A stretch of DNA of 64,000 nucleotides. It comes from Bacteroidales bacterium. GTDB taxonomy: Bacteria > Bacteroidota > Bacteroidia > Bacteroidales > UBA10428. The DNA lies in the NCBI GenBank assembly GCA_016929525.1, contig JAFGIP010000008.1, positions 34,749-98,748 on the forward strand. Reading direction: 5' to 3'. Shown here one piece after another: positions 9,945 to 51,812 of this stretch (its first letter is position 1; the number at the start of each line of letters is the position of its first letter). The notes under the pieces were generated by a model. It saw nothing but the letters and a program-made list of their open reading frames with translations. It was not told where the DNA came from and searched no databases. The translations under genes and the position numbers were made by a program.

Positions 9945-12254
9945 ATGGGAAAAATAGCAGATAAATATTTTAAACTGGATCCCTGGGCAATTATCGAGGA
10001 AGGTTTTGATCCAATACACGGAAAAGTTGCTGAATCAATATTTTCACTGGGAAATGAATATATGGGGGCCCGGGGTTATTTTGAAGAAGGCTATAGTGGA
10101 CCAAAACATGTTGGCAGCTATTTCAACGGATTTTACGAAAGTTCAGAAGTATCTCATCCTGCTGTTTACAAAGGCTTTGTTCTTACCAATGTCGATCTTA
10201 CAAATTCTGTCGATTGGTTGCACGTTAGGATTTCCCTGGATGGTGAATTACTGGATATCGCCAAAAGTAAAATACAGAATTTCAAACGCAAACTGGAATT
10301 AAAAACAGGTACTCTAACACGTGAGTTTACCTGGAATACACAATCGGGCAAAAAAGTAAAAGTAGTATTCGAGCGTTTTACAAGCATGATTTGCAATAAT
10401 TTAGGCGGCCAGAAAGTTACTTTTGAACCCATTAATTTTTCGGGTAAATTAAAAATAATTTCCGGCCTTGACTTCTCAATACACGAAGAGAAACTTCCCG
10501 AAGGCAATATGGTCTGCCTCAGAAAAGAAAAACATGAGGATATATTTGCGGCGCTTGGACAAACCAGGAAAAGCAAATTGAGCCTTTTTTCAAGCTTCAG
10601 GATAGATGCTTCTGAGAAAATCAATCACAAGACTGTTCAGGATGACTTACGATTCGGGACAGAATTCACGCTGAACTTAAAAGAAGGTACTCCGTCCTCC
10701 TTCTCGAAAATAGTTATAAACTACGCTGATAAGAAAGAAAAGGCCGATGCTGATGAGGTGTGGAAAAAAGGTATGTCAGTTGCGGAAAAATACAAAACAA
10801 TTACATACGAAACTGCACACAAGGAACACATATCATTTTGGGAGGACGTTTGGAACAACTTCGATATTGTAATCGATGGTGACGATAAAAATCAGCAGGG
10901 AATACGATACTGTATCTATCAGATGCATCAGACTTATCATGGTCAGGACCCAAGTTTAAATATCGGTGCCAAAGGATTGACAGGCGAAGCATACGGAGGT
11001 AAGGCATTTTGGGATACCGAAGCGTATTGTCTTGCATTCTATATTTTCAATAATCCCACAGCCGCCCTTAACCTGTTAAAGTACAGATATAATTTCCTTC
11101 CGCAAGCTATTGCCCGTGCCAAACAACTCGATTGTAAAGGTGCATGCTATCCGATTGCCACCATCGATGGCCATGAAAATAGTGCGTTATGGCAACACAG
11201 CAGCATTCAGATTCATGTAAGTGGATCGGTAGCCTTTGGTATTTCGCAGTATGCCAGTGTAACCAAAGACAAAGAATTCCTTTATAAAGAAGGAATTGAA
11301 ATGCTGCTCCAGATTGCGCGTTTCTATGCAAGCAGGGCCCAGCAGGATCCTGAAACCAATGAATATGGCTATTATGGCGTAATGGGAGTTGATGAATTTC
11401 ATATGATGGTAAATAACAACTGCTTTGTGAACTATATGGGAAAGAAATCGATGGAATTCGCTCTCGATGTGGTTAATGAAATGAAAACTTCGGCACCTCA
11501 GAAATTAAAAGAAGTGGAAAAGAAAATCGATCTTCAGCTTTCTGAGCTGACGGAATGGGAGCAGATGTGTAAAAATATGGCAATGCCACAGGATAACGAA
11601 ACTGGAGTGTATGAGGAACACGATGGTTATTTCAGATGGCCGCACATTGATATTCATTCGATACCTGTTGAAGATTTCCCTTTGTACCATAACTGGTCGT
11701 ACGACAGGATATATCGTTACGATATGATTAAACAACCGGATGTATTGATGATGATGTTTTTATATAACCAGGATTTCAGTCAAAATATAAAAAAGGTGAA
11801 TTACGAATTTTATGAACCAAGGTGCATTCATGAGTCGTCGCTTTCACCATCGGTACATTCAATACTTGCGGCCGAAATCGGTAAACATGATGAAGCATCG
11901 GAATTTTTCGGATTTGCAACCCGGTTAGATCTCGATGATTATAACCGCAATACATTCGAAGGTTTACATTTAACATCGATATCAGCAGCCTGGATGAATA
12001 TTGTTTTTGGATTTGGCGGGATGCGTACAGATGGAGATATTCTCGTTTTTGCCCCCTCAATTCCTAAAACCTGGAAATCATTTTCTTTCCGCATTATATA
12101 TCAGGAAGCAACACTGAATATTACTGTTGATAAAACCAAGGCCCGGTTTAAAACCAATGGAACAACTGTAACGTTAAAAATATACGGCAAAACTTATTCT
12201 ATTGGCTCTGAAGAGGTAAGCATTGATATTCCTGACTTTTATATTGCTAAATAA
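9945..12254 (+). CDS. GH65 glycoside phosphorylase (maltose/trehalose/kojibiose phosphorylase-like)
   Basis: IGAKGLTGEAYGG..FWDTE, catalytic G(V)DEFH, KQPDVL and HESSLS motifs; adjacent to beta-phosphoglucomutase. Confidence 0.92.
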   Translation: MGKIADKYFKLDPWAIIEEGFDPIHGKVAESIFSLGNEYMGARGYFEEGYSGPKHVGSYFNGFYESSEVSHPAVYKGFVLTNVDLTNSVDWLHVRISLDGELLDIAKSKIQNFKRKLELKTGTLTREFTWNTQSGKKVKVVFERFTSMICNNLGGQKVTFEPINFSGKLKIISGLDFSIHEEKLPEGNMVCLRKEKHEDIFAALGQTRKSKLSLFSSFRIDASEKINHKTVQDDLRFGTEFTLNLKEGTPSSFSKIVINYADKKEKADADEVWKKGMSVAEKYKTITYETAHKEHISFWEDVWNNFDIVIDGDDKNQQGIRYCIYQMHQTYHGQDPSLNIGAKGLTGEAYGGKAFWDTEAYCLAFYIFNNPTAALNLLKYRYNFLPQAIARAKQLDCKGACYPIATIDGHENSALWQHSSIQIHVSGSVAFGISQYASVTKDKEFLYKEGIEMLLQIARFYASRAQQDPETNEYGYYGVMGVDEFHMMVNNNCFVNYMGKKSMEFALDVVNEMKTSAPQKLKEVEKKIDLQLSELTEWEQMCKNMAMPQDNETGVYEEHDGYFRWPHIDIHSIPVEDFPLYHNWSYDRIYRYDMIKQPDVLMMMFLYNQDFSQNIKKVNYEFYEPRCIHESSLSPSVHSILAAEIGKHDEASEFFGFATRLDLDDYNRNTFEGLHLTSISAAWMNIVFGFGGMRTDGDILVFAPSIPKTWKSFSFRIIYQEATLNITVDKTKARFKTNGTTVTLKIYGKTYSIGSEEVSIDIPDFYIAK

Positions 12255-12301
12255 TTTTAATTGACTATCAAAAATCATACACATAACGAACTGAAAAGTA
12301 A

Positions 12302-12365
12302 GACATTCCTGCGCAGGCAGGAATCCAGTCAAAATACCTGGATTCCGTGTCAAGCACGGAATAAC
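12302..12365. repeat. REP-like composite palindromic element
   Basis: ATTCCTGC-GCAG-GCAGGAAT hairpin, CCAG-N9-CTGG, then ATTCCGTG-TCAAG-CACGGAAT hairpin; GC-rich within an AT-rich intergenic region. Confidence 0.75.
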
Positions 12366-12454
12366 CCATAATATAGATGTAAATTATTCTTGAATCAATA
12401 CTAATTTATTTTATATAACCTGAAAAAGTAACAAGCTGATTAAATATATTTTAA

Positions 12455-13105
12455 ATGATTAAAGGAGTAATTTTCGATTTAGACGGAGTGATTGTTTCAA
12501 CCGACGAATTCCATTACCAGGCATGGCAACAGATGGCCGACGAAGAAGGTATTTATTTCGATCGTCATATCAACGAGCGTTTGAGAGGGGTAAGCCGCAT
12601 GGAAAGCCTTGAAATAATACTGGAAAGAGCAAGAAAACAGTATTCCGAAGATCAAAAAACTGAATTGGCAACCCGGAAGAACAATTACTATAAAGTATTA
12701 CTGGACACTCGTTTATCACCAAAAGACATACTTCCCGGAGTTATGAAAGTTTTAACCGACCTGAAGAATAGCAATATAAAAATTGCAATTGGTTCTTCGA
12801 GTCGTAATTCTCCGTCAATATTGAAACATATAGACCTGGAAGCATTCTTTGATGCCACAGCCGATGGCAATGATATCAAAAAAAGCAAGCCGGACCCTGA
12901 AGTGTTTTTAATCGCAGCTCAGCGATTAGGATTAGAACCTGATGAATGTGTAGTAGTAGAAGATGCCGAAGCCGGTATAACTGCGGCACTGAATGGCGGT
13001 ATGAAAGCGCTTGCTGTGGGTTCTGCTATCTCGGATAAAAGAGCTCATTTTGCTGCAAAAGATCTTGCTGAAATAACCATCGATCAAATCATCAACATTT
13101 CTTAA
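12455..13105 (+). CDS. pgmB: Beta-phosphoglucomutase (HAD superfamily)
   Basis: FDLDGV, HYQAW, LRGVSRMESL, SKPDPEVF, VEDAEAG motifs. Confidence 0.95.
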   Translation: MIKGVIFDLDGVIVSTDEFHYQAWQQMADEEGIYFDRHINERLRGVSRMESLEIILERARKQYSEDQKTELATRKNNYYKVLLDTRLSPKDILPGVMKVLTDLKNSNIKIAIGSSSRNSPSILKHIDLEAFFDATADGNDIKKSKPDPEVFLIAAQRLGLEPDECVVVEDAEAGITAALNGGMKALAVGSAISDKRAHFAAKDLAEITIDQIINIS

Positions 13106-13139
13106 TATTGTAATGTACTAAAGCTAATAACACTCTCAC

Positions 13140-14471
13140 ATGAAACAAAAACCCAATCTCACTTTCTGGCAGCTCTGGAACCTAAGTGTAGGATATATCG
13201 GAATCCAGCTTGGTTATTCCCTGCAGGGTCAGTCAAGTCGTATCTTTTCCATTTTGGGCGCTGAAGATCACAATTTACCCATACTTTGGTTAGGAGCACC
13301 ACTGGCCGGACTCCTCGTTCAACCGATCATCGGGTTATCAAGTGATAAAACCTGGACAAAACTCGGTAGACGTTTACCCTTCTTACTGGCAGGAGGTATT
13401 ATTGCTGTTCTGGCTATGATATTTATCGTCAATTCAGAATTAGCAGCTGTTCTGATGCCTGCCTATCTGTTTGCCGCTGTAATGTTACTTCTGATGGACT
13501 GTGCTTTTAATGTCAGCATGCAACCATTACGATCATTAGTCGGCGATATGGTAAACGACCAACAAAGGAACCAGGGTTTTTCCATCCAGATGATATTGTC
13601 AAATATTGGCGCTATTATCGGATTTGGTCTTCCGTTTATATTGACCAATGTGTTCGGTTTAAACAACGAATCAACAGATAGTCAAAAAATCCCGGCATCT
13701 TTATTATGGTCGTATTATATAGGAGGTGCTATATTAATTATCAGTGTTCTGTGGACAACTTTCCGTGTTAAAGAATATCCTCCAAAAGTATTTGCAGAAT
13801 ATAATAATCTCACGGAAGAAGATAAAAAGAAAGAATCTATTCTGAAAATTTTGAAGACCATACCACGTGTTATGTTCCAGGTAGCAATCGTTCAATTTTT
13901 CACGTGGTTTGCTTTATTCATACTCTGGAACTATATAGTAAACGGACTTGCAGAGAATGTATGGGCCATAACAGACAGATCATCTAAAGCATTTAATGAA
14001 GCCGGAGACTGGTGGGGTATAATGGGCGCTATGCAAAGTGTTTGTGCTTTTATATTTGCTTTTTTTATGGGGAAAATGGCCAACAATATAGGGCGTAAAA
14101 AGGTGTATTCCTTTTCGTTGTTTTTGGGTGCAATGGGCTTAATATCCGTGTATTTTTTCCACGATAAATATTTAATGCTTATATCAATGGCGGCTATGGG
14201 TATTGCAACCTCCGCTATGAATGCTATGCCTTTTGCTATTATCAGCGCTGCTATTCCTCCAACCAAAATGGGTGTATATATGGGAATATTTAATATTTCC
14301 ATTGTTATCCCGCAAATTATATTTGCTCTTATCGGAGGCTTTGTATTTAAATTTGTTGTCGGACTCGGAGGCAGCAATATTACTATGATTATCCTGGCCG
14401 GGGTATCAATGTTAATTGCCTCATTGGTTGTATTTATAATTAACGACAAAGATAGTTTAGTAACCGAATAA
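13140..14471 (+). CDS. MFS sugar transporter (maltose/sucrose-type)
   Basis: LWLGAPLAGLLVQPIIG..SD.TW..LGRRLPF and MGVYMGIFN..IVIPQI motifs; about 12 hydrophobic segments. Confidence 0.88.
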   Translation: MKQKPNLTFWQLWNLSVGYIGIQLGYSLQGQSSRIFSILGAEDHNLPILWLGAPLAGLLVQPIIGLSSDKTWTKLGRRLPFLLAGGIIAVLAMIFIVNSELAAVLMPAYLFAAVMLLLMDCAFNVSMQPLRSLVGDMVNDQQRNQGFSIQMILSNIGAIIGFGLPFILTNVFGLNNESTDSQKIPASLLWSYYIGGAILIISVLWTTFRVKEYPPKVFAEYNNLTEEDKKKESILKILKTIPRVMFQVAIVQFFTWFALFILWNYIVNGLAENVWAITDRSSKAFNEAGDWWGIMGAMQSVCAFIFAFFMGKMANNIGRKKVYSFSLFLGAMGLISVYFFHDKYLMLISMAAMGIATSAMNAMPFAIISAAIPPTKMGVYMGIFNISIVIPQIIFALIGGFVFKFVVGLGGSNITMIILAGVSMLIASLVVFIINDKDSLVTE

Positions 14472-14554: not shown

Positions 14555-14715
14555 GAATAACGGTCGGGTGTATGATGTCGATGGCGCCTGTCTGTTCATA
14601 AACCGGCAGGCAGGTTGCATTGCATTGTTTCTGATTAGCAAGATAAGAAAAAAGCCACTAATGCTCTTATCCGCCGTAACACAAACCCGCCTGTGACTTA
14701 TATTGGCTGTTAGAC
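14555..14715 (-). repeat. attC-like imperfect inverted-repeat element
   Basis: Minus strand begins GTCTAAC (fits RYYYAAC) and ends GTTATTC; plus-strand arms TAACGGTCGGGTGTA / TATATTGGCTGTTA pair using G:T wobbles. Confidence 0.5.
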
Positions 14716-20895: not shown

Positions 20896-21807
20896 ATGGA
20901 AGGCATATTTCATTTTGCTACTGTAAAAGAATACAATGATTTGAATAACCATGAGACTTTTCATCCCCTGGTTAGTATTATTAATTTTTCAAAGGCCAAT
21001 CCAAGAACCTGGGGTAAAGAAAGGAATGTTAGAATTAATTATGGATTGTATTGCATTTTTTTGAAAGATATAAAGTGTGGAGATTTAAAATATGGCTGTA
21101 ATTATTATGACTACCAGGAAGGCACGTTGGTTTTTGTTTCACCGGGACAAGTAATGGAAATTGAAAATGACGGTAATGTGTATCAACCCAAGGGGCACGC
21201 ATTGGTTTTTCATTCTGACCTTTTAAAAGGAACTCCTTTAGCCCAAAACATTAATAAATACAACTTTTTCAGCTACAATACGAATGAAGCATTGCATTTA
21301 TCCGAACGTGAAAGACAGATTGTTTTAGATCTGTTTTCAAAGATTAATTATGAACTACGGCAGAGTGTTGACAAGCACAGTAAAAAACTCATTGTCTCGT
21401 ATATTGATTTATTTCTGAATTACTGTGAGCGCTTCTACGATCGCCAGTTTATTACCAGAGATAACGTTAATAAAGGGATCTTAGAAAAATTCGAAGAACA
21501 ATTAAATAGTTATTTTTTATCGGGAAAACCACAATCAATAGGTTTACCATCAGTTGCATACTTTGCAGATGGACTTCATTTATCGGCCAATTACTTTGGA
21601 GATTTGATTAAAAAAGAAACTGGAAAATCAGCAAAAGAATACATTCAAAACAAAGTAATAAATATTGCTAAAAACAAAATATTCGATTCAAATAAAACAG
21701 TAAGTGAGATAGCAAGTGAATTAGGTTTCAAATATCCGCAACATTTTAGCCGTATGTTTAAAAATGTAACCGGCTATGCGCCAAATGAATTTAGAAATCT
21801 GAATTAA
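20896..21807 (+). CDS. AraC-family transcriptional regulator
   Basis: YDYQEGTLVF N-domain; C-terminal LSANYFGDLIKKETG and IASELGFKYPQHFSRMFK..G..P.EFR. Confidence 0.95.
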   Translation: MEGIFHFATVKEYNDLNNHETFHPLVSIINFSKANPRTWGKERNVRINYGLYCIFLKDIKCGDLKYGCNYYDYQEGTLVFVSPGQVMEIENDGNVYQPKGHALVFHSDLLKGTPLAQNINKYNFFSYNTNEALHLSERERQIVLDLFSKINYELRQSVDKHSKKLIVSYIDLFLNYCERFYDRQFITRDNVNKGILEKFEEQLNSYFLSGKPQSIGLPSVAYFADGLHLSANYFGDLIKKETGKSAKEYIQNKVINIAKNKIFDSNKTVSEIASELGFKYPQHFSRMFKNVTGYAPNEFRNLN

Positions 21808-21835
21808 GTGTATTATCCCAAGGTACGTCGGCAAT

Positions 21836-21904
21836 AAAACAGCACATTCCGCAAAAAAAGGTTTTGAGCGTTTGGCTGTGCTTTTTTGCGGGATATGCTG
21901 TTTT
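21836..21904. terminator. Long stem-loop downstream of the AraC gene
   Basis: AAAACAGCACATTCCGCAAAAAA / TTTTTTGCGGGATATGCTGTTTT, about 23 bp with one mismatch and one wobble. Confidence 0.55.
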
Positions 21905-22094
21905 GTGCGGTGGGGTTTCTCGAAGTCTGCGCGTGGGGAGAAAAACAAAATAAATTGCTTTCAGCGGGCTCATTCTTCGTCCTCGGTTCCGATCAAGTTG
22001 TCCCTACCTTTCAACAGATCTCCAATCATTCCGCCATTTTTATACATAATTTGCTACGTGTTGTGCAGCCTTTTTTTAGGACGGGTCACACTTG

Positions 22095-22229
22095 CATGCA
22101 AGGGTTCAGTATAAGTGCAGTGCGGGATTACGAAGCGATTACTTGTCCAGATACAACTTAATTACTTTACGAGCTTTAACCTTTGAACACTGCCCAGACC
22201 CGTATGCGCTCTACCATTTGTTGGTGAAA
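22095..22229 (-). repeat. attC-like element downstream of the vapBC module
   Basis: Starts TTTCACCAAC (minus) 5 nt after the vapC stop; internal stem AGTGCA-G-TGCGGG (22114-22126) pairs with CCCGTA-TGCGCT (22199-22210) with one bulged G. Confidence 0.55.
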
Positions 22230-22234
22230 GTACA

Positions 22235-22448
22235 CTAATGTTTATCTGTCCAATTTTCGATCTTAATATTTTCCATCCTCTCGAATTCCATAACGTTTCG
22301 AGTTACTAAGGTCATATTATAAACTATTGCAGTTGATCCTATGAATAAATCTAAATCACTTATAATAGTTCCTCTCGATTTCAATCTGGCTTTTTCTTTC
22401 CCATAAACTCTTATCGATTCAAATATTGGTATCCAGTAAATAGTCCAT
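22235..22448 (-). pseudogene. vapC: VapC/PIN-domain toxin with internal deletion
   Basis: MDYLLDTNI then stop; a second frame gives PIFESIRVYGKEKARLKSRGTIISDLDLFIGSTAI..LVTRNV.EFERM..IENW. Start overlaps the upstream stop (TAATG). Confidence 0.85.
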
Positions 22449-22687
22449 TAGAATTCTTCAATATCTAAATTATTTACACTATCCCTCTGGATATCACCAA
22501 TGATTTTATCAGCGCTCCTTACATCATCCCATGCACCAAAACAAGATGAAAAATCTCGCTTGTCATCAGATTTATCATTTATTGACTGAGTCAATTTATT
22601 AATCATATCTTTCTTTGATTCAGCATCCCAGTTTTTCATTAATCTAAAATAACTGTTTACTTTATTATTTTTCGGGCCAATGTTCAT
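22448..22687 (-). CDS. Probable antitoxin of the VapC module
   Basis: 79 aa with FGAW.D.RSA..II..I motif, translationally coupled to vapC; own TATCTTTG promoter at 22703-22710 favours the ATG at 22687. Confidence 0.7.
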   Translation of the reverse strand: MNIGPKNNKVNSYFRLMKNWDAESKKDMINKLTQSINDKSDDKRDFSSCFGAWDDVRSADKIIGDIQRDSVNNLDIEEF

Positions 22688-23093
22688 TCGACTACTTTTA
22701 TTCAAAGATACAAATTATCGGAATGTTTCAATTTACTTGATTGCATGCCGTATTTTCACCAACTAGTTAATAAACGCAACTCATTTTGTTAAATTATTTC
22801 GATTATCACCCCATATATTTGGAGATAAACAAATTTAATTGCTCCGTTTATCATATCCTTATATTCCTCTTTAATAATTCCCTACTTCAAATTACAATTT
22901 TACGCTATAAAATCAAATTCAGATATTCTCCTTTCGCCTTCCCAACTGCTCCTGTTAAGTTTTCACGAAGGAATAATGTGAAGAAATAAAGCTTAACAGG
23001 AAGATCATGGTATTGTATCAGGTATACTTGTAATTAAACAGGAAAGCCTCCGGGATCCACAGGAAGAATTCCGGGGGCTGTTCCCGTTAATAT

Positions 23094-23151: not shown

Positions 23152-25182
23152 CTATTCCTCTTCCTCCACAACCTTCTCTGCAACAAATCTGATTGCCTGT
23201 CCGCCGCCCGGAGCAAGGTATACCTGTATGCTGTCTTTCGAGGTTACAATTTTATCGTAAATATTTATAGAGTATGGATTTGTCTTCCAGTCTGCATCCT
23301 TTCCATCGGCATAAATTTGCGCTATATACTGTATATCTTTATCAAGAAATTTGAGTGAATATGCAAGCTGCCGGGGTTCTTCATTTGTGATACTTCCCAG
23401 ATACCAGTCATTGCTGTTACGGTCTTTTCTGACGATGGTAACAAATTCACCTATCTCACCATCCAGTGCTTTGGTGTCTTCCCAATCACAGACTACATCT
23501 TCAATGAATTTAAATGCAGGATTGCCCTCGTAATTTTCCGGCAGGTCGGCAGCCATCTGCAGAGGGCTGTAAATTACCACGTAATATGCCAATTGCTTTG
23601 CAAGGGTTGTATTAACCTGGTTATTCGGTCGTGACGGTAACATCATTTCAAAGATACCGGGAGTGTAATCCATCGGAGATGCAAGCATTCTGGTAAATAC
23701 AAGAACAGGTACGTGCGATGGTGCATTTCCGCCTTCACCGCCCCACACATTGTATTCCATACCCCGGGCTCCTTCACGGGTCATCAGGTTTGGCCATGTC
23801 CGTCTTAAACCACAGTCTTTGACGGGTTCGTGAATATCCATCATTATCCTGTATTTAGCAGCCATCTCAACAGTATTCTGATAATGTCTCACTCCGGCTT
23901 GTCCGTGGTGCCACTCATCTTTTTCAAGCTTATCACTAACATAACCTGTTTTTAGGTATCTTATACCAAGATCGTGATAATACTTGTAAGCATCTTCCAT
24001 CTGATCTTCATAATTCAGGTGTGCACCATAAGTTTCATGATGCCCGACTATCTCAACACCCTTCGAATTAGCATATTCAACAACTTTTTCAAGATTGAAA
24101 TCAGGGTATGCTTCTGTAAAACTAAAAACTCTGCCATCGTCAAGCCATTCACGGTCCCATCCCTGGTTCCAACCTTCAACTAGTACACCTTTTATACCAT
24201 GTTTGGCTGCAAAATCGATGTATTTTATTGCATTTTCGGTGGTGGCACCATGCTTCGGTCCCGATTCCCATGTACTTATACCCAGGTGCATCATCCACCA
24301 TATTCCAATATATTTGGCAGGTTCAATCCAGGAGACGTCTTCTATTTTACTGGTATCATTTAAATTTAAGATCAGATAATTTGTTATCAGATCTGCAGGT
24401 TTCTCACCAACGGCGATCGTTCTCCAGGGTGAATTGAACGGAGTCTTCACATATGCTTTAATTCCGTTTTTCCAGGGAACCAGATCACATGCCAGAATAT
24501 TGGTATCTGTTCTGAAAATTGTCATACTTGGATAATCGTATAACGCTGCTTCGTGTATACATAAATAAAGTCCATCTTTCGTTTCAATGGTTAACGGCGT
24601 ATGTACGGTATCCATTTCAGCAAGAGAAGTCTTTTTATGAACATACTCATAACGTTCCCGCCTGTATGCAGGGATCCACCAGGCATTCTCATTGGCTTTG
24701 GTGATGAACTGGGTTTTTTCGTCAATAACCTGAAATTCTTTTAAATTATCCTGCTCGGGAAACTCATAGCGAAAACCTAGGCCGTCGTTATATAAGCGAA
24801 AAGTTATATTTAATTTTCTTTCCAGACCCGACTTCTCTTTAAGAAAGACCGTAAGCTCGTGATATTTATTTTCTATTTCACGTACTTCACCCCATGGTTG
24901 TTCCCATGTTTCATTAAATTCTCCAATTTTATTATCTGCCAAAATAAAATTTGAATCGAGATCATCCATTTCATTCAAAACAAACCCCAGGGCTGACTTT
25001 CTTATCACCGGTGATCCGTTCCTGTTCAGTTTATAATATGGAACTCCCCCATATTCGAGGTTAAATATCAACTGTAATCTATAATCCGGAGAACTGATTG
25101 CAATCTCATCCCACTCCCTGGTGCAACTCACAATAATTATTGTAACTAACGCACCGGTTAAAATTTTAAAAACATACCTCAT
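23152..25182 (-). CDS. GH97 glycoside hydrolase (SusB-like alpha-glucosidase), lipoprotein
   Basis: GIWW.MH, HGATTEN, VLVEGWN.GW, GHHET (inverting-type base), REGARGME, PMDYTPG, SPLQMAAD. Confidence 0.93.
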   Translation of the reverse strand: MRYVFKILTGALVTIIIVSCTREWDEIAISSPDYRLQLIFNLEYGGVPYYKLNRNGSPVIRKSALGFVLNEMDDLDSNFILADNKIGEFNETWEQPWGEVREIENKYHELTVFLKEKSGLERKLNITFRLYNDGLGFRYEFPEQDNLKEFQVIDEKTQFITKANENAWWIPAYRRERYEYVHKKTSLAEMDTVHTPLTIETKDGLYLCIHEAALYDYPSMTIFRTDTNILACDLVPWKNGIKAYVKTPFNSPWRTIAVGEKPADLITNYLILNLNDTSKIEDVSWIEPAKYIGIWWMMHLGISTWESGPKHGATTENAIKYIDFAAKHGIKGVLVEGWNQGWDREWLDDGRVFSFTEAYPDFNLEKVVEYANSKGVEIVGHHETYGAHLNYEDQMEDAYKYYHDLGIRYLKTGYVSDKLEKDEWHHGQAGVRHYQNTVEMAAKYRIMMDIHEPVKDCGLRRTWPNLMTREGARGMEYNVWGGEGGNAPSHVPVLVFTRMLASPMDYTPGIFEMMLPSRPNNQVNTTLAKQLAYYVVIYSPLQMAADLPENYEGNPAFKFIEDVVCDWEDTKALDGEIGEFVTIVRKDRNSNDWYLGSITNEEPRQLAYSLKFLDKDIQYIAQIYADGKDADWKTNPYSINIYDKIVTSKDSIQVYLAPGGGQAIRFVAEKVVEEEE

Positions 25183-50924: not shown

Positions 50925-51812
50925 ATGGAAGGACTCAGAACATTTGTTGAATATATTAAGACAGAGAAACGTTATTCCGAACACACCGTCCGCGCGTATT
51001 CCGACGATCTGAATCAATTCTTATTTTTTATCAACAGGGAAGATCCTAACGGGTCATTGTTAAATGTATCTCGTTCCGACATCAGAAACTGGATCATGTA
51101 TCTGGTTAAAAAAGGTTGTTCATCCCGCACATTGAGGCGTAAACTGGCTTCATTAAAATCTTTCTATCATTTCCTTTTGCAACGTAAGTTAATCGAAATA
51201 GATCCATCAGAAGGAATATTGTTACCGAAGCTTGACAAGAAAATACCCGATTTTATAAAAGAATCTTCTATCGATCAGCTATTTAATCAAAACCTGTTTG
51301 CACAGAATTTTTCCGGTTTAAGAGATAAGGTTGTATTAGAACTTTTTTATGCAACAGGTATGAGACTTTCTGAACTTACAAATCTTAAAAAACTGGATAT
51401 TGACCTGAATAAAGGTGAGGTGAAAATTCATGGAAAACGAAGTAAAGAAAGAATTGTTCCTCTTACAAAAACAGTAAAAACATTACTGTATAAATATTTA
51501 TCACATGTTCAAAAACAGTTTAATAATTTAGAAACAGATAATCTTATTTTAACAAATAAAGGAGAACCGGCTTATCCGAAAATGATCCAGCGTTTGGTTC
51601 ACAAATACTTACTGCAGGCAACAACTCTTGAGAAAAAGAGTCCGCATATGTTACGACATACATTTGCTACACATATGCTGAATAAAGGTGCTGATCTGAA
51701 TGCTGTTAAAGAATTGCTTGGACATGCAAACCTAGCAGCAACTGAAATATATACACATAATACATACGAGAAACTTAAATTAATATATAAACAAGCTCAT
51801 CCCAGAGCATAA
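50925..51812 (+). CDS. xerC: XerC-like tyrosine recombinase
   Basis: YATGMRLSEL, GK..KER.VP, SPHMLRHTFATH, LLGHANL.ATEIY, HPRA; conserved rpsU-xer-hpf context. Confidence 0.88.
   Translation: MEGLRTFVEYIKTEKRYSEHTVRAYSDDLNQFLFFINREDPNGSLLNVSRSDIRNWIMYLVKKGCSSRTLRRKLASLKSFYHFLLQRKLIEIDPSEGILLPKLDKKIPDFIKESSIDQLFNQNLFAQNFSGLRDKVVLELFYATGMRLSELTNLKKLDIDLNKGEVKIHGKRSKERIVPLTKTVKTLLYKYLSHVQKQFNNLETDNLILTNKGEPAYPKMIQRLVHKYLLQATTLEKKSPHMLRHTFATHMLNKGADLNAVKELLGHANLAATEIYTHNTYEKLKLIYKQAHPRA

What the first reader, a model, noticed from the sequence alone, without database searches (positions are those of the whole stretch)
22095..22860. vapBC module built like an integron gene cassette, with no integron integrase nearby
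Seen: the TA pair is bracketed by a perfect 10-bp inverted repeat, GTTGGTGAAA (22220-22229) and TTTCACCAAC (22754-22763). On the coding strand the unit starts GTTGGTG and ends CACCAAC 5 nt after the last stop, followed by a roughly 135-nt imperfect hairpin with a bulged G. The module has its own TATCTTTG promoter. Upstream is a non-hairpin site (minus strand GAGTTGCGTTTATTAACTA-GTT, plus a GATAAAC/GTTTATC repeat at 22824-22852). Established: complementary core (GTT) and inverse-core (AAC) sites at cassette ends, attC hairpins and self-promoted TA cassettes are integron hallmarks, described mainly in Proteobacteria. Inference: a divergent Bacteroidota cassette system, with an attI-like site near 22763 and the recombinase lost or encoded elsewhere.
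Basis: partly seen in the sequence, partly recalled or inferred. Interest (0 to 1): 0.8.

Follow-up and report, generated by a model that had tools for sequence, protein, structure and literature searches.

The report
Decayed gene cassette of Bacteroidota integron-like system
The small antitoxin/broken-toxin gene pair is a real, now decaying, mobile gene cassette of an integron-like gene-capture system that is widespread in this bacterial order and appears to be run by a recombinase lacking the domain thought essential for integron chemistry.

Summary
The inverted repeat is real (14 nt, 1 mismatch). It is the end-complementarity left by recombination at G|TT. In 66 neighbouring cassettes from five genomes, the cassette start matched its own hairpin site at 7 or more of 9 bases in 41 cases, against 1.6% of mismatched controls.

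The 22096-22226 element belongs to a ~130-nt hairpin family with strong covariation that folds better on the non-coding strand. This copy is decayed: 7 of 22 pairs are broken and the core is mutated. vapC is a pseudogene that has lost about 62 codons.

The upstream site matches the docking site beside a tyrosine recombinase on contig C120 of the same genome. That enzyme is Xer-like and lacks the ~41-residue IntI insertion. Its relatives head co-oriented arrays in five of five loci examined, including 88 sites over 275 kb in a complete genome. None of the five family genomes searched has a canonical IntI.

The hairpin family was found in 55 of 60 other genomes of the order and 43 of 150 of the phylum, and once beside a canonical IntI.

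I found no published description in eight searches. Earlier notes of this scan describe the same kind of system on other DNA. Recombination activity is inferred, not shown.

The parts
22757..22785 (-). attI-like docking site. The minus strand reads GAGTTGCGTTTATTAACTA|GTTGGTG, with the cassette junction at 22764|22763.
   Evidence: It has the same GTTTAT...ACTA|GTT layout as C120, 85 nt after the recombinase stop, and as C44:23231-23244. The junction matches the reverse complement of the cassette's own R'' at 12 of 13 bases; the second-best match is 7.
22750..22763 (-). 5' end of the cassette: the far half of its own recombination site (GTTGGTGAAAATAC on the minus strand).
   Evidence: It shows the same end-complementarity, with the same A/G mismatch at position 11, as the 66 array cassettes.
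22704..22711 (-). TATCTTTG motif just upstream of vapB. It is a possible Bacteroidetes-type -7 box (consensus recalled from memory, not tested).
   Evidence: Sequence. No RNA data were available.
22448..22705 (-). vapB-like antitoxin ORF, intact. The likely start is the ATG at 22687.
   Evidence: 33% identical over 79 aa to the antitoxin of the intact vapBC paralogue on C33. No Pfam or NCBIfam hit.
22419..22448 (-). First 9 codons of vapC (MDYLLDTNI) followed by a stop. The ATG overlaps the vapB stop.
   Evidence: Compare the start of the paralogue, MMKYLLDTNI....
22235..22426 (-). C-terminal remnant of vapC (PIN domain), in a different frame from the start.
   Evidence: 59% identical to residues 72-130 of the 133-aa PIN protein of C33. 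The paralogue scores PF01850 at 4.3e-14. About 62 codons are missing.
22096..22226 (+). attC-like hairpin site of the cassette. The folding (bottom) strand is the + strand. This copy is decayed.
   Evidence: Model R1 scores 48.7 bits, E 5.3e-11, full length, with 7 of 22 pairs broken and core AAG in place of AAC. It is 92% identical over 103 nt to C120:952-1054. It does not fold better than shuffles.
22869..22934 (-). Block conserved upstream of the docking site. It resembles a Bacteroidetes promoter (TTTG...TAATTTG) reading towards the cassette.
   Evidence: 85% identical to C44:23336-23400 and C43:5785-5837 (alignment). The promoter reading is inference only.
22035..22088 (-). 54-nt remnant identical in kind to the start of an IS3-OrfA-like gene. 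It lies 14 nt beyond the hairpin.
   Evidence: 94% identical to C44:21178-21230, which sits at the same distance from that locus's hairpin.
14555..14715 (+). Second attC-like hairpin of the same family, lying between convergent MFS and cupin genes.
   Evidence: R1 scores 60.1 bits, though this copy was in the training set. BLAST links it to C44:21254-21309. No complementary cassette start was found.

Best explanation
The unit 22763-22096 (minus strand) is a single gene cassette of an integron-like gene-capture system. The cassette was once a circle carrying vapB-vapC and one ~130-nt hairpin recombination site. It recombined at G|TT with a docking site (22764|22763). As a result, the first bases of the integrated cassette are the far half of its own site and pair with the near half at 22220-22233.

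The docking site here has no recombinase of its own. The cognate enzyme is most likely the Xer-like tyrosine recombinase on contig C120, which I call IntX. IntX has a 175-aa N-terminal extension and lacks the IntI insertion. It sits directly upstream of an equivalent site and a cassette array.

The sites are read as folded single strands of the non-coding strand. Conserved G.T wobbles stabilise that strand only.

The window copy is now a fossil: vapC has lost ~62 codons, and the distal arm and core of the hairpin are mutated, so it probably cannot move again.

Shown: family membership, structure and covariation, end-complementarity, and recombinase adjacency. Inferred: that IntX catalyses the reaction, single-strand chemistry, and promoter function.
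For: - Hairpin family. A MAFFT alignment of 7 copies gave 22 pairs, 88.2% paired against 74.3% in shuffles (0 of 500 shuffles as high) and 34.5-50% when the pairing was slid. In 76 hits from array loci of 5 genomes, 95.1% were paired against 69.8%, and 17 of 22 pairs had compensatory changes; that alignment was fitted to the model.
- Strand asymmetry. G.T pairs occur at three positions in 67-75 of 75 sequences. The non-coding strand is more stable in 64 of 76 elements.
- Circular-permutation signature. In 66 adjacent pairs the mean match was 6.38 of 9, with 41 of 66 at 7 or more. Non-own controls gave 2.88 and 1.6%. Same-site controls gave 3.19 and 4%. The window pair is 13 of 14 with the same mismatch.
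- Same property elsewhere in this genome. The hicAB cassette on C120 matches at 15 nt with 1 mismatch.
- Docking site. The first cassette starts 40-162 nt after the IntX stop in 5 of 5 arrays. The window, C44 and C120 sites share GTTTAT..ACTA|GTT.
- IntX heads co-oriented arrays: G005 (88 sites over 275 kb), G019, G031, G129 and G075.
- No canonical IntI was found in G000, G005, G008, G019 or G031.
Against: - No recombination event was observed. Read data gave no joints, and only assembled contigs were available.
- This copy's hairpin folds no better than shuffled sequence, so the case rests on homology with intact copies.
- One of the three docking-type loci in this genome (C44) shows no end-complementarity. 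The 14555-14715 copy has no identifiable cassette start. C26 matches only 9 of 13 bases, by eye.
- The same hairpin family lies beside a canonical IntI in G075, so a canonical IntI could also act on such sites.
- IntX monophyly is weakly supported (47/32).
- The G000 assembly is 97.7% complete, so a missing gene cannot be excluded for this genome alone.
Confidence: 0.8

Rival explanations
1. These are ordinary integron attC sites served by a canonical IntI. The window cassette is a lone attC relic, and the Xer-like gene next to arrays is incidental or secondary.
For: R1-type sites follow four consecutive genes 3.8 kb from a canonical IntI (429 bits, above the 265 cut-off) in G075. Canonical IntI is present in 3 of the 5 genomes of other classes that have hits. 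Length, AAC/GTT cores, an extrahelical T and bottom-strand bias all resemble canonical attC (features recalled from memory).
Against: - None of the five family genomes searched has a TIGR02249 match over the cut-off. These include a complete single-contig genome with an 88-site array.
- IntX lies at the array head, co-oriented, in 5 of 5 arrays, with the first cassette junction 40-162 nt after its stop.
- In G075 the canonical IntI lies at the distal end of the array, in neither known geometry.
- In G075, G129 and G069, IntX-type genes also sit upstream of hits.
Confidence: 0.12
2. The sites are recombined as double-stranded DNA by a Xer-type mechanism, as with dif/pdif modules. The hairpin potential would then be a by-product of dyad symmetry.
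For: The recombinase is closest to XerA and XerD. It lacks the insertion that, according to PMC7790495 (passages read), lets IntI recognise single-stranded substrates.
Against: Conserved G.T wobbles on one strand only (67-75 of 75 sequences at three positions) and the better fold of that strand in 64 of 76 elements are not expected for a duplex site. The ~85-nt variable loop and the conserved bulged base also fit a folded substrate.
Confidence: 0.06
3. The inverted repeat is a chance repeat around a decaying toxin-antitoxin pair, and the flanking repeats are unrelated intergenic repeats or terminators.
For: The 1.4-kb region holds 33 inverted repeats, several of similar length. This copy's fold is not significant.
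Against: The repeat sits exactly on the family's recombination cores. It shows the family's specific mismatch. It also coincides with a covariance-model hit that was not used in training.
Confidence: 0.02

Closest known systems
Integrons, especially sedentary chromosomal integrons of the 'inverted integrase' layout (IntI, attI, attC cassettes)
   Same: - Cassettes are bounded by ~130-nt imperfect hairpins with AAC/GTT cores and crossover at G|TT.
- The non-coding strand folds preferentially, with an extrahelical T.
- The docking site lies next to the recombinase.
- Long co-oriented arrays occur, with many toxin-antitoxin cassettes.
   Different: - The recombinase lacks the ~41-residue IntI insertion and falls outside the IntI clade.
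- It carries a long N-terminal extension.
- The hairpin has a 4-nt one-sided bulge next to a 5-bp core helix instead of a two-sided unpaired spacer (canonical form recalled from memory).
- Strand choice is reinforced by conserved G.T wobbles.
CALIN / single attC sites lacking an integrase (IntegronFinder categories; names from PMC9024848 and recall)
   Same: The window has hairpin sites and a cassette with no recombinase within reach.
   Different: The two sites in the window are 7.4 kb apart and do not form a cluster. One of them sits at a docking-type site rather than next to another attC. Whether IntegronFinder's attC model recognises these sites could not be tested.
Xer-dependent dif/pdif modules and IMEXs
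   Same: A Xer-like enzyme is involved. Small modules, often toxin-antitoxin pairs, are bracketed by inverted recombination cores.
   Different: The sites here are ~130-nt structured hairpins with strand asymmetry, not 28-bp duplex sites. The recombinase is dedicated and array-linked, not the housekeeping XerC/D, which is present separately at window 50925-51812.
VapBC type II toxin-antitoxin modules
   Same: The antitoxin gene lies upstream, overlapping the toxin start (TAATG). The toxin remnant is of the PIN family.
   Different: The toxin lacks residues ~10-71 and is frameshifted. Only the antitoxin is intact.

Membership tests
Integron (IntI-attI-attC) | Integrase carries the IntI-specific additional domain (I2 helix) around patch III | tested here: not met
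   Against VchIntIA (2a3v), the query has 22 residues where IntI4 has 64. Between GKGxKDR and HxxRH, 3 of 3 canonical IntI have 120 residues, 8 of 8 IntX have 78-79, and the 3 Xer have 81-85. TIGR02249 scores 192.9, below the 265 cut-off.
Integron (IntI-attI-attC) | attC: imperfect inverted repeat with AAC/GTT cores that folds as a single strand, bottom strand preferred, with extrahelical base(s) | tested here: met
   The window copy itself is decayed.
Integron (IntI-attI-attC) | Cassettes are circularly permuted units: the cassette start is complementary to the near core of its own attC | tested here: met
   41 of 66 cassettes match at 7 or more of 9 bases, against 1.6% of controls. The window cassette matches 13 of 14.
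Integron (IntI-attI-attC) | attI docking site adjacent to the integrase gene | tested here: met
   For the system, the junction lies 40-162 nt after the IntX stop in 5 of 5 arrays. For the window, an attI-like site is present but no integrase.
Integron (IntI-attI-attC) | Integrase-catalysed attI x attC and attC x attC recombination | not testable with these tools
   No joints were seen in contig-level read data.
Integron (IntI-attI-attC) | Recognition by the standard attC covariance model (IntegronFinder) | not tested
Rfam gave no match.
CALIN (cluster of attC sites lacking integrase) | Two or more attC sites close together with no integrase nearby (threshold recalled from memory) | tested here: not met
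   There are only two R1 hits in the window, at 14555-14715 and 22096-22226, 7.4 kb apart.
VapBC toxin-antitoxin | Intact PIN-domain toxin | tested here: not met
   No Pfam hit for the remnant.
XerC/XerD chromosome dimer resolvases | Scores above the curated XerC/XerD cut-offs and groups with XerC/D | tested here: not met
   IntX scores XerD 196.7 against a cut-off of 329.6, and XerC 184.4 against 335. It lies outside the XerC/D clade, which has 97/98 support. It does pass NF040815, 'XerA / integron integrase', at 238.5 against 220.

The most novel reading that the evidence does not exclude
A Xer-like recombinase without the I2/additional domain carries out integron-type recombination of folded single-stranded hairpin sites. 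It builds arrays of up to at least 88 cassettes across an order of Bacteroidota. The I2 domain would then not be required for integron chemistry. These enzymes would be either a surviving pre-IntI stage or an independent solution, with strand choice encoded in conserved G.T wobbles of the site.
Probability: 0.45. Interest if true: 0.9.

Novelty: new variant of a known kind. Interest (0 to 1): 0.78.

Why it matters
Integrons are described as rare in Bacteroidetes. PMC9024848 (passages read) reports one complete integron, in Salinibacter, and otherwise lone integrases. PMC7790495 and the preprint 10.1101/2022.02.06.479319 (passages read) present the IntI extra domain as the innovation that allows single-stranded attC recombination.

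Here a family of hairpin-bounded cassettes with the full circular-permutation signature fills up to 7% of a genome and is headed by an enzyme without that domain. If the enzyme is active on these sites, the origin of integron chemistry becomes directly testable. A large pool of mobile cassettes in environmental Bacteroidota, many of them toxin-antitoxin pairs, would also become visible to annotation tools.

The window itself shows the end state of such a cassette: stranded at an integrase-less docking site, with toxin and recombination site both decaying.

Tried and rejected
- Rfam found only tRNAs in the window and nothing on the C120 sites.
- A generic AAC...GTT hairpin scan of the whole genome was too noisy to use: 436 hits, mostly background.
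- I first read the window hairpin as truncated by an IS. The model alignment shows it is full length with a decayed arm.
- R1 found nothing in the 9 loci brought in by the recombinase search. The Vibrio and Photobacterium loci turned out to hold phage-type integrases and no repeat arrays, so they were no test of canonical attC sites.
- The synteny test for an empty site failed. Genus relatives are only ~68% identical, and the AraC-GH97 neighbourhood is not conserved.
- Sequencing runs gave little. Only the probable source run holds the locus, as contigs. No RNA holder is listed. No joints were seen.
- I checked whether IntX is part of an attC-homing IS91-type element. Its upstream neighbours are ordinary genes in the 2 loci checked.
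- Eight literature searches found no paper describing Xer-like-headed cassette arrays in Bacteroidota. Supplementary tables of the IntegronFinder papers, which may list CALINs in Bacteroidetes, could not be seen.

Full report
**What is in the window**

The region lies between an AraC-family regulator gene (20896-21807, + strand) and a GH97 glycosidase gene (23152-25182, - strand). The small genes are on the minus strand.

- The vapB-like ORF (22448-22705) is intact. It is 33% identical to the antitoxin of an intact vapBC pair on contig C33 of the same genome.
- vapC is broken. Its ATG overlaps the vapB stop and nine codons (MDYLLDTNI) run into a stop. The rest of the gene resumes in another frame at 22426-22235.
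- That remnant aligns to residues 72-130 of the 133-residue PIN protein of C33 at 59% identity. About 62 codons of the toxin core are gone.

**The inverted repeat**

The repeat is real: 14 nt with one mismatch, at 22220-22233 and 22750-22763. Within two mismatches the 14-mer occurs nowhere else in 64 kb, where 0.36 matches are expected. On its own this is only suggestive, because the 1.4-kb region holds 33 inverted repeats.

**The hairpin**

Folding 22095-22229 on either strand gives energies no better than shuffled sequence (z +0.92 and +1.44). BLAST against the organism's own genome changes the picture. Window 22120-22222 is 92% identical to C120:952-1054, where the full element has long complementary arms flanked by AAC and GTT.

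I aligned seven such elements from five contigs with MAFFT and found both conserved sequence and a consensus fold on the non-coding strand. The fold consists of:

- a 5-bp core helix (yAACG / TGTTr);
- a 4-nt one-sided bulge;
- a 12-bp helix;
- a bulged T;
- 5 more base pairs;
- an ~85-nt variable loop.

On that unfitted alignment 88.2% of cells pair, against 74.3% in shuffles (0 of 500 as high) and 34.5-50% when the partners are slid. Ten of 22 pairs show compensatory changes.

A covariance model (R1) finds 15 matches in the own genome. Eleven have E of 3.4e-9 or lower: the seven training copies plus C103, C7, a third site on C73, and window 22096-22226, none of which was used in training. 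The window copy is full length but has seven broken pairs, and its core reads AAG instead of AAC. It is a decayed member of a real family.

**Are these cassette boundaries?**

In ten loci from five genomes (144 kb) the model finds 76 sites. Within each locus all sites lie on one strand, and each follows a gene or gene pair.

The decisive test is. For 66 neighbouring sites, I compared the 9 nt after GTT at the start of a cassette with the reverse complement of the 9 nt before AAC of that cassette's own site.

| Comparison | Mean match (of 9) | Share at 7 or more |
|---|---|---|
| Cassette start vs own site (66 pairs) | 6.38 | 41 of 66 |
| Cassette start vs sites of other cassettes | 2.88 | 1.6% |
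| Two cores of the same site (75 sites) | 3.19 | 4% |

This is the circular-permutation signature of integron cassettes: the crossover at G|TT leaves the far end of a cassette's site at the cassette's own 5' end.

The matches typically fail at position 11, A against G, which is a T.G wobble on the folding strand. The window pair, GTTGGTGAAAATAC against GTTGGTGAAAGTAC, shows exactly this. The hicAB cassette on C120 behaves the same way (15 nt, one mismatch).

**Strand asymmetry**

G.T pairs occupy three model positions in 67-75 of 75 sequences (on an alignment fitted to the model). The non-coding strand is the more stable one in 64 of 76 elements, with a median difference of 2.65 kcal/mol. The sequences are related, so these are not independent trials.

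**The recombinase and the docking site**

The best match to the integron-integrase model in the genome is a 447-residue tyrosine recombinase on C120. On the same strand and downstream of it lie, in order:

- the motif ...GTTTATTACATATATATACTA|GTTATGTAC, 85 nt after the stop codon;
- three genes;
- a hairpin site;
- hicAB;
- a second hairpin site;
- the contig end.

The window motif (...GCGTTTATTAACTA|GTTGGTG) and one on C44 (...ACGTTTATATACTA|GTTGTGC) share this layout.

In five of five arrays headed by a homologue of this enzyme (G000, G019, G031, G129, G075), the start of the first cassette lies 40-162 nt after the recombinase stop. I located that start as the complement of the first site's near core, matching 10-12 of 13 bases. 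In the window the same test gives 12 of 13 at 22763. C44 gives no match.

**What kind of enzyme it is**

- It passes NF040815 ('XerA / integron integrase', 238.5 against a cut-off of 220). It fails TIGR02249 (192.9 against 265) and the XerC and XerD models.
- Its closest solved relatives are the archaeal XerA structures 4a8e and 5hxy, then XerD. VchIntIA aligns in two pieces, leaving 22 query residues opposite 64.
- Between the GKGxKDR and HxxRH motifs, three canonical IntI of the phylum have 120 residues. Eight IntX have 78-79 and three Xer have 81-85.
- In a 16-row tree the IntI clade (100/100) and the XerC/D clade (97/98) are each well supported. IntX falls outside both, but its own unity is weakly supported (47/32).
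- At least 3840 database proteins match at E of 1e-30 or lower. They are annotated as XerD, as tyrosine recombinase, or as 'site-specific tyrosine recombinase/integron integrase', and come from Bacteroidales MAGs, Saccharicrinis and Polaribacter.

**Distribution**

R1 hits 55 of 60 other genomes sampled from the order, including 36 of 36 in the family, and 43 of 150 sampled from the phylum at E of 1e-6 or lower.

In a complete single-contig genome of the same genus (G005), 109 of 150 scored candidates match. Of these, 88 lie on one strand between 3,682,248 and 3,956,786, with a median spacing of 2.0 kb. The IntX homologue sits at 771-1838, just across the contig origin and co-oriented with the array.

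None of G000, G005, G008, G019 or G031 has a canonical IntI above the cut-off.

Against a simple story: in other classes of the phylum, three of five genomes with hits do have a canonical IntI (429-432 bits). In G075, four R1-type sites follow four genes 3.8 kb from one. The hairpin family is therefore not exclusive to IntX.

**Reading of the window**

The vapB / broken-vapC unit is a genuine cassette sitting at a docking-type site that has no recombinase of its own. Upstream lies a block shared with C44 and C43 that resembles a promoter. The toxin and the distal arm and core of the hairpin have decayed, so the cassette is probably fixed in place. That IntX acts on these sites, and that it does so on folded single strands, is inference from adjacency and from site asymmetry.

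**What is known**

- PMC9024848 (passages read) reports very few integrons in Bacteroidetes.
- PMC7790495 and the preprint 10.1101/2022.02.06.479319 (passages read) treat the extra domain as necessary for attC recombination.
- PMC8138268 (passages read) notes that the insertion is 'not fully conserved' in its integron-like recombinase subgroup.
- Eight searches found no description of such arrays. Supplementary tables could not be seen.
- Earlier notes of this scan describe the same kind of system in Roseivirga, flavobacteria and phages. I saw them after reaching my reading, and they are not independent evidence.

Noticed in passing
window 22035-22088; C44:21178-21230 (L009): The same 54-nt sequence lies exactly 14 nt beyond the hairpin's distal arm at two different cassettes. 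In both, the GTT core is replaced. In C44 the sequence begins an IS3-OrfA-like gene, MYKNDGIARRYS..., with no transposase ORF after it. Related stretches occur in G021, G015 and G022. It may be a site-specific insertion into the recombination core.
   Followed up: partly
window 21822-22027: This stretch of non-coding sequence contains a 23-nt inverted repeat (21836-21858 / 21882-21904). It matches short stretches inside or near cassette arrays of relatives at 74-89% identity, for example G005:C1:3868416-3868502 next to a hairpin site, and G019:C2, G004:C57 and G010:C126. It may be the remnant of a second cassette.
   Followed up: no
window 22990-23075; C44:23400-23700; L008 6740-7290: Runs of ~21-nt repeats built on CCTGCAGGAA / GCATCCGAGCAA motifs lie upstream of the docking-type loci and upstream of the C120 recombinase. 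On C120 a 69-aa fragment duplicating the recombinase N-terminus (L008 6439-6648) lies between them.
   Followed up: no
L052 (G075:C1:1198000-1213000): A canonical IntI (12233-13333, + strand) lies at the distal end of four co-oriented cassettes with R1-type sites. This matches neither the classical divergent layout nor the 'integrase first' layout.
   Followed up: partly
G008:C2 and G031:C4: Five or more near-identical copies of 274-aa or 289-aa tyrosine recombinases are present. Several lie inside the G031 array region (2.10-2.16 Mb). They look like a multicopy mobile element living in the arrays.
   Followed up: no
L055-L057 (G005 array): One ~441-nt cassette (start GTTACAGCCAAG) recurs at least 9 times among the 66 neighbouring pairs examined. 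This gives the repeated 570-573-nt spacing between sites.
   Followed up: no
L025 4319-5075 (C26): Another lone toxin-antitoxin cassette in this genome: a ParE-like toxin with its antitoxin, followed by the best-scoring hairpin site (117.9 bits), directly after a GH31 gene. Its start matches its own site at only 9 of 13 bases.
   Followed up: partly
window 22489-22639: Two soil-metagenome runs from other studies each hold a 151-nt contig differing by 1 base from this part of vapB.
   Followed up: no
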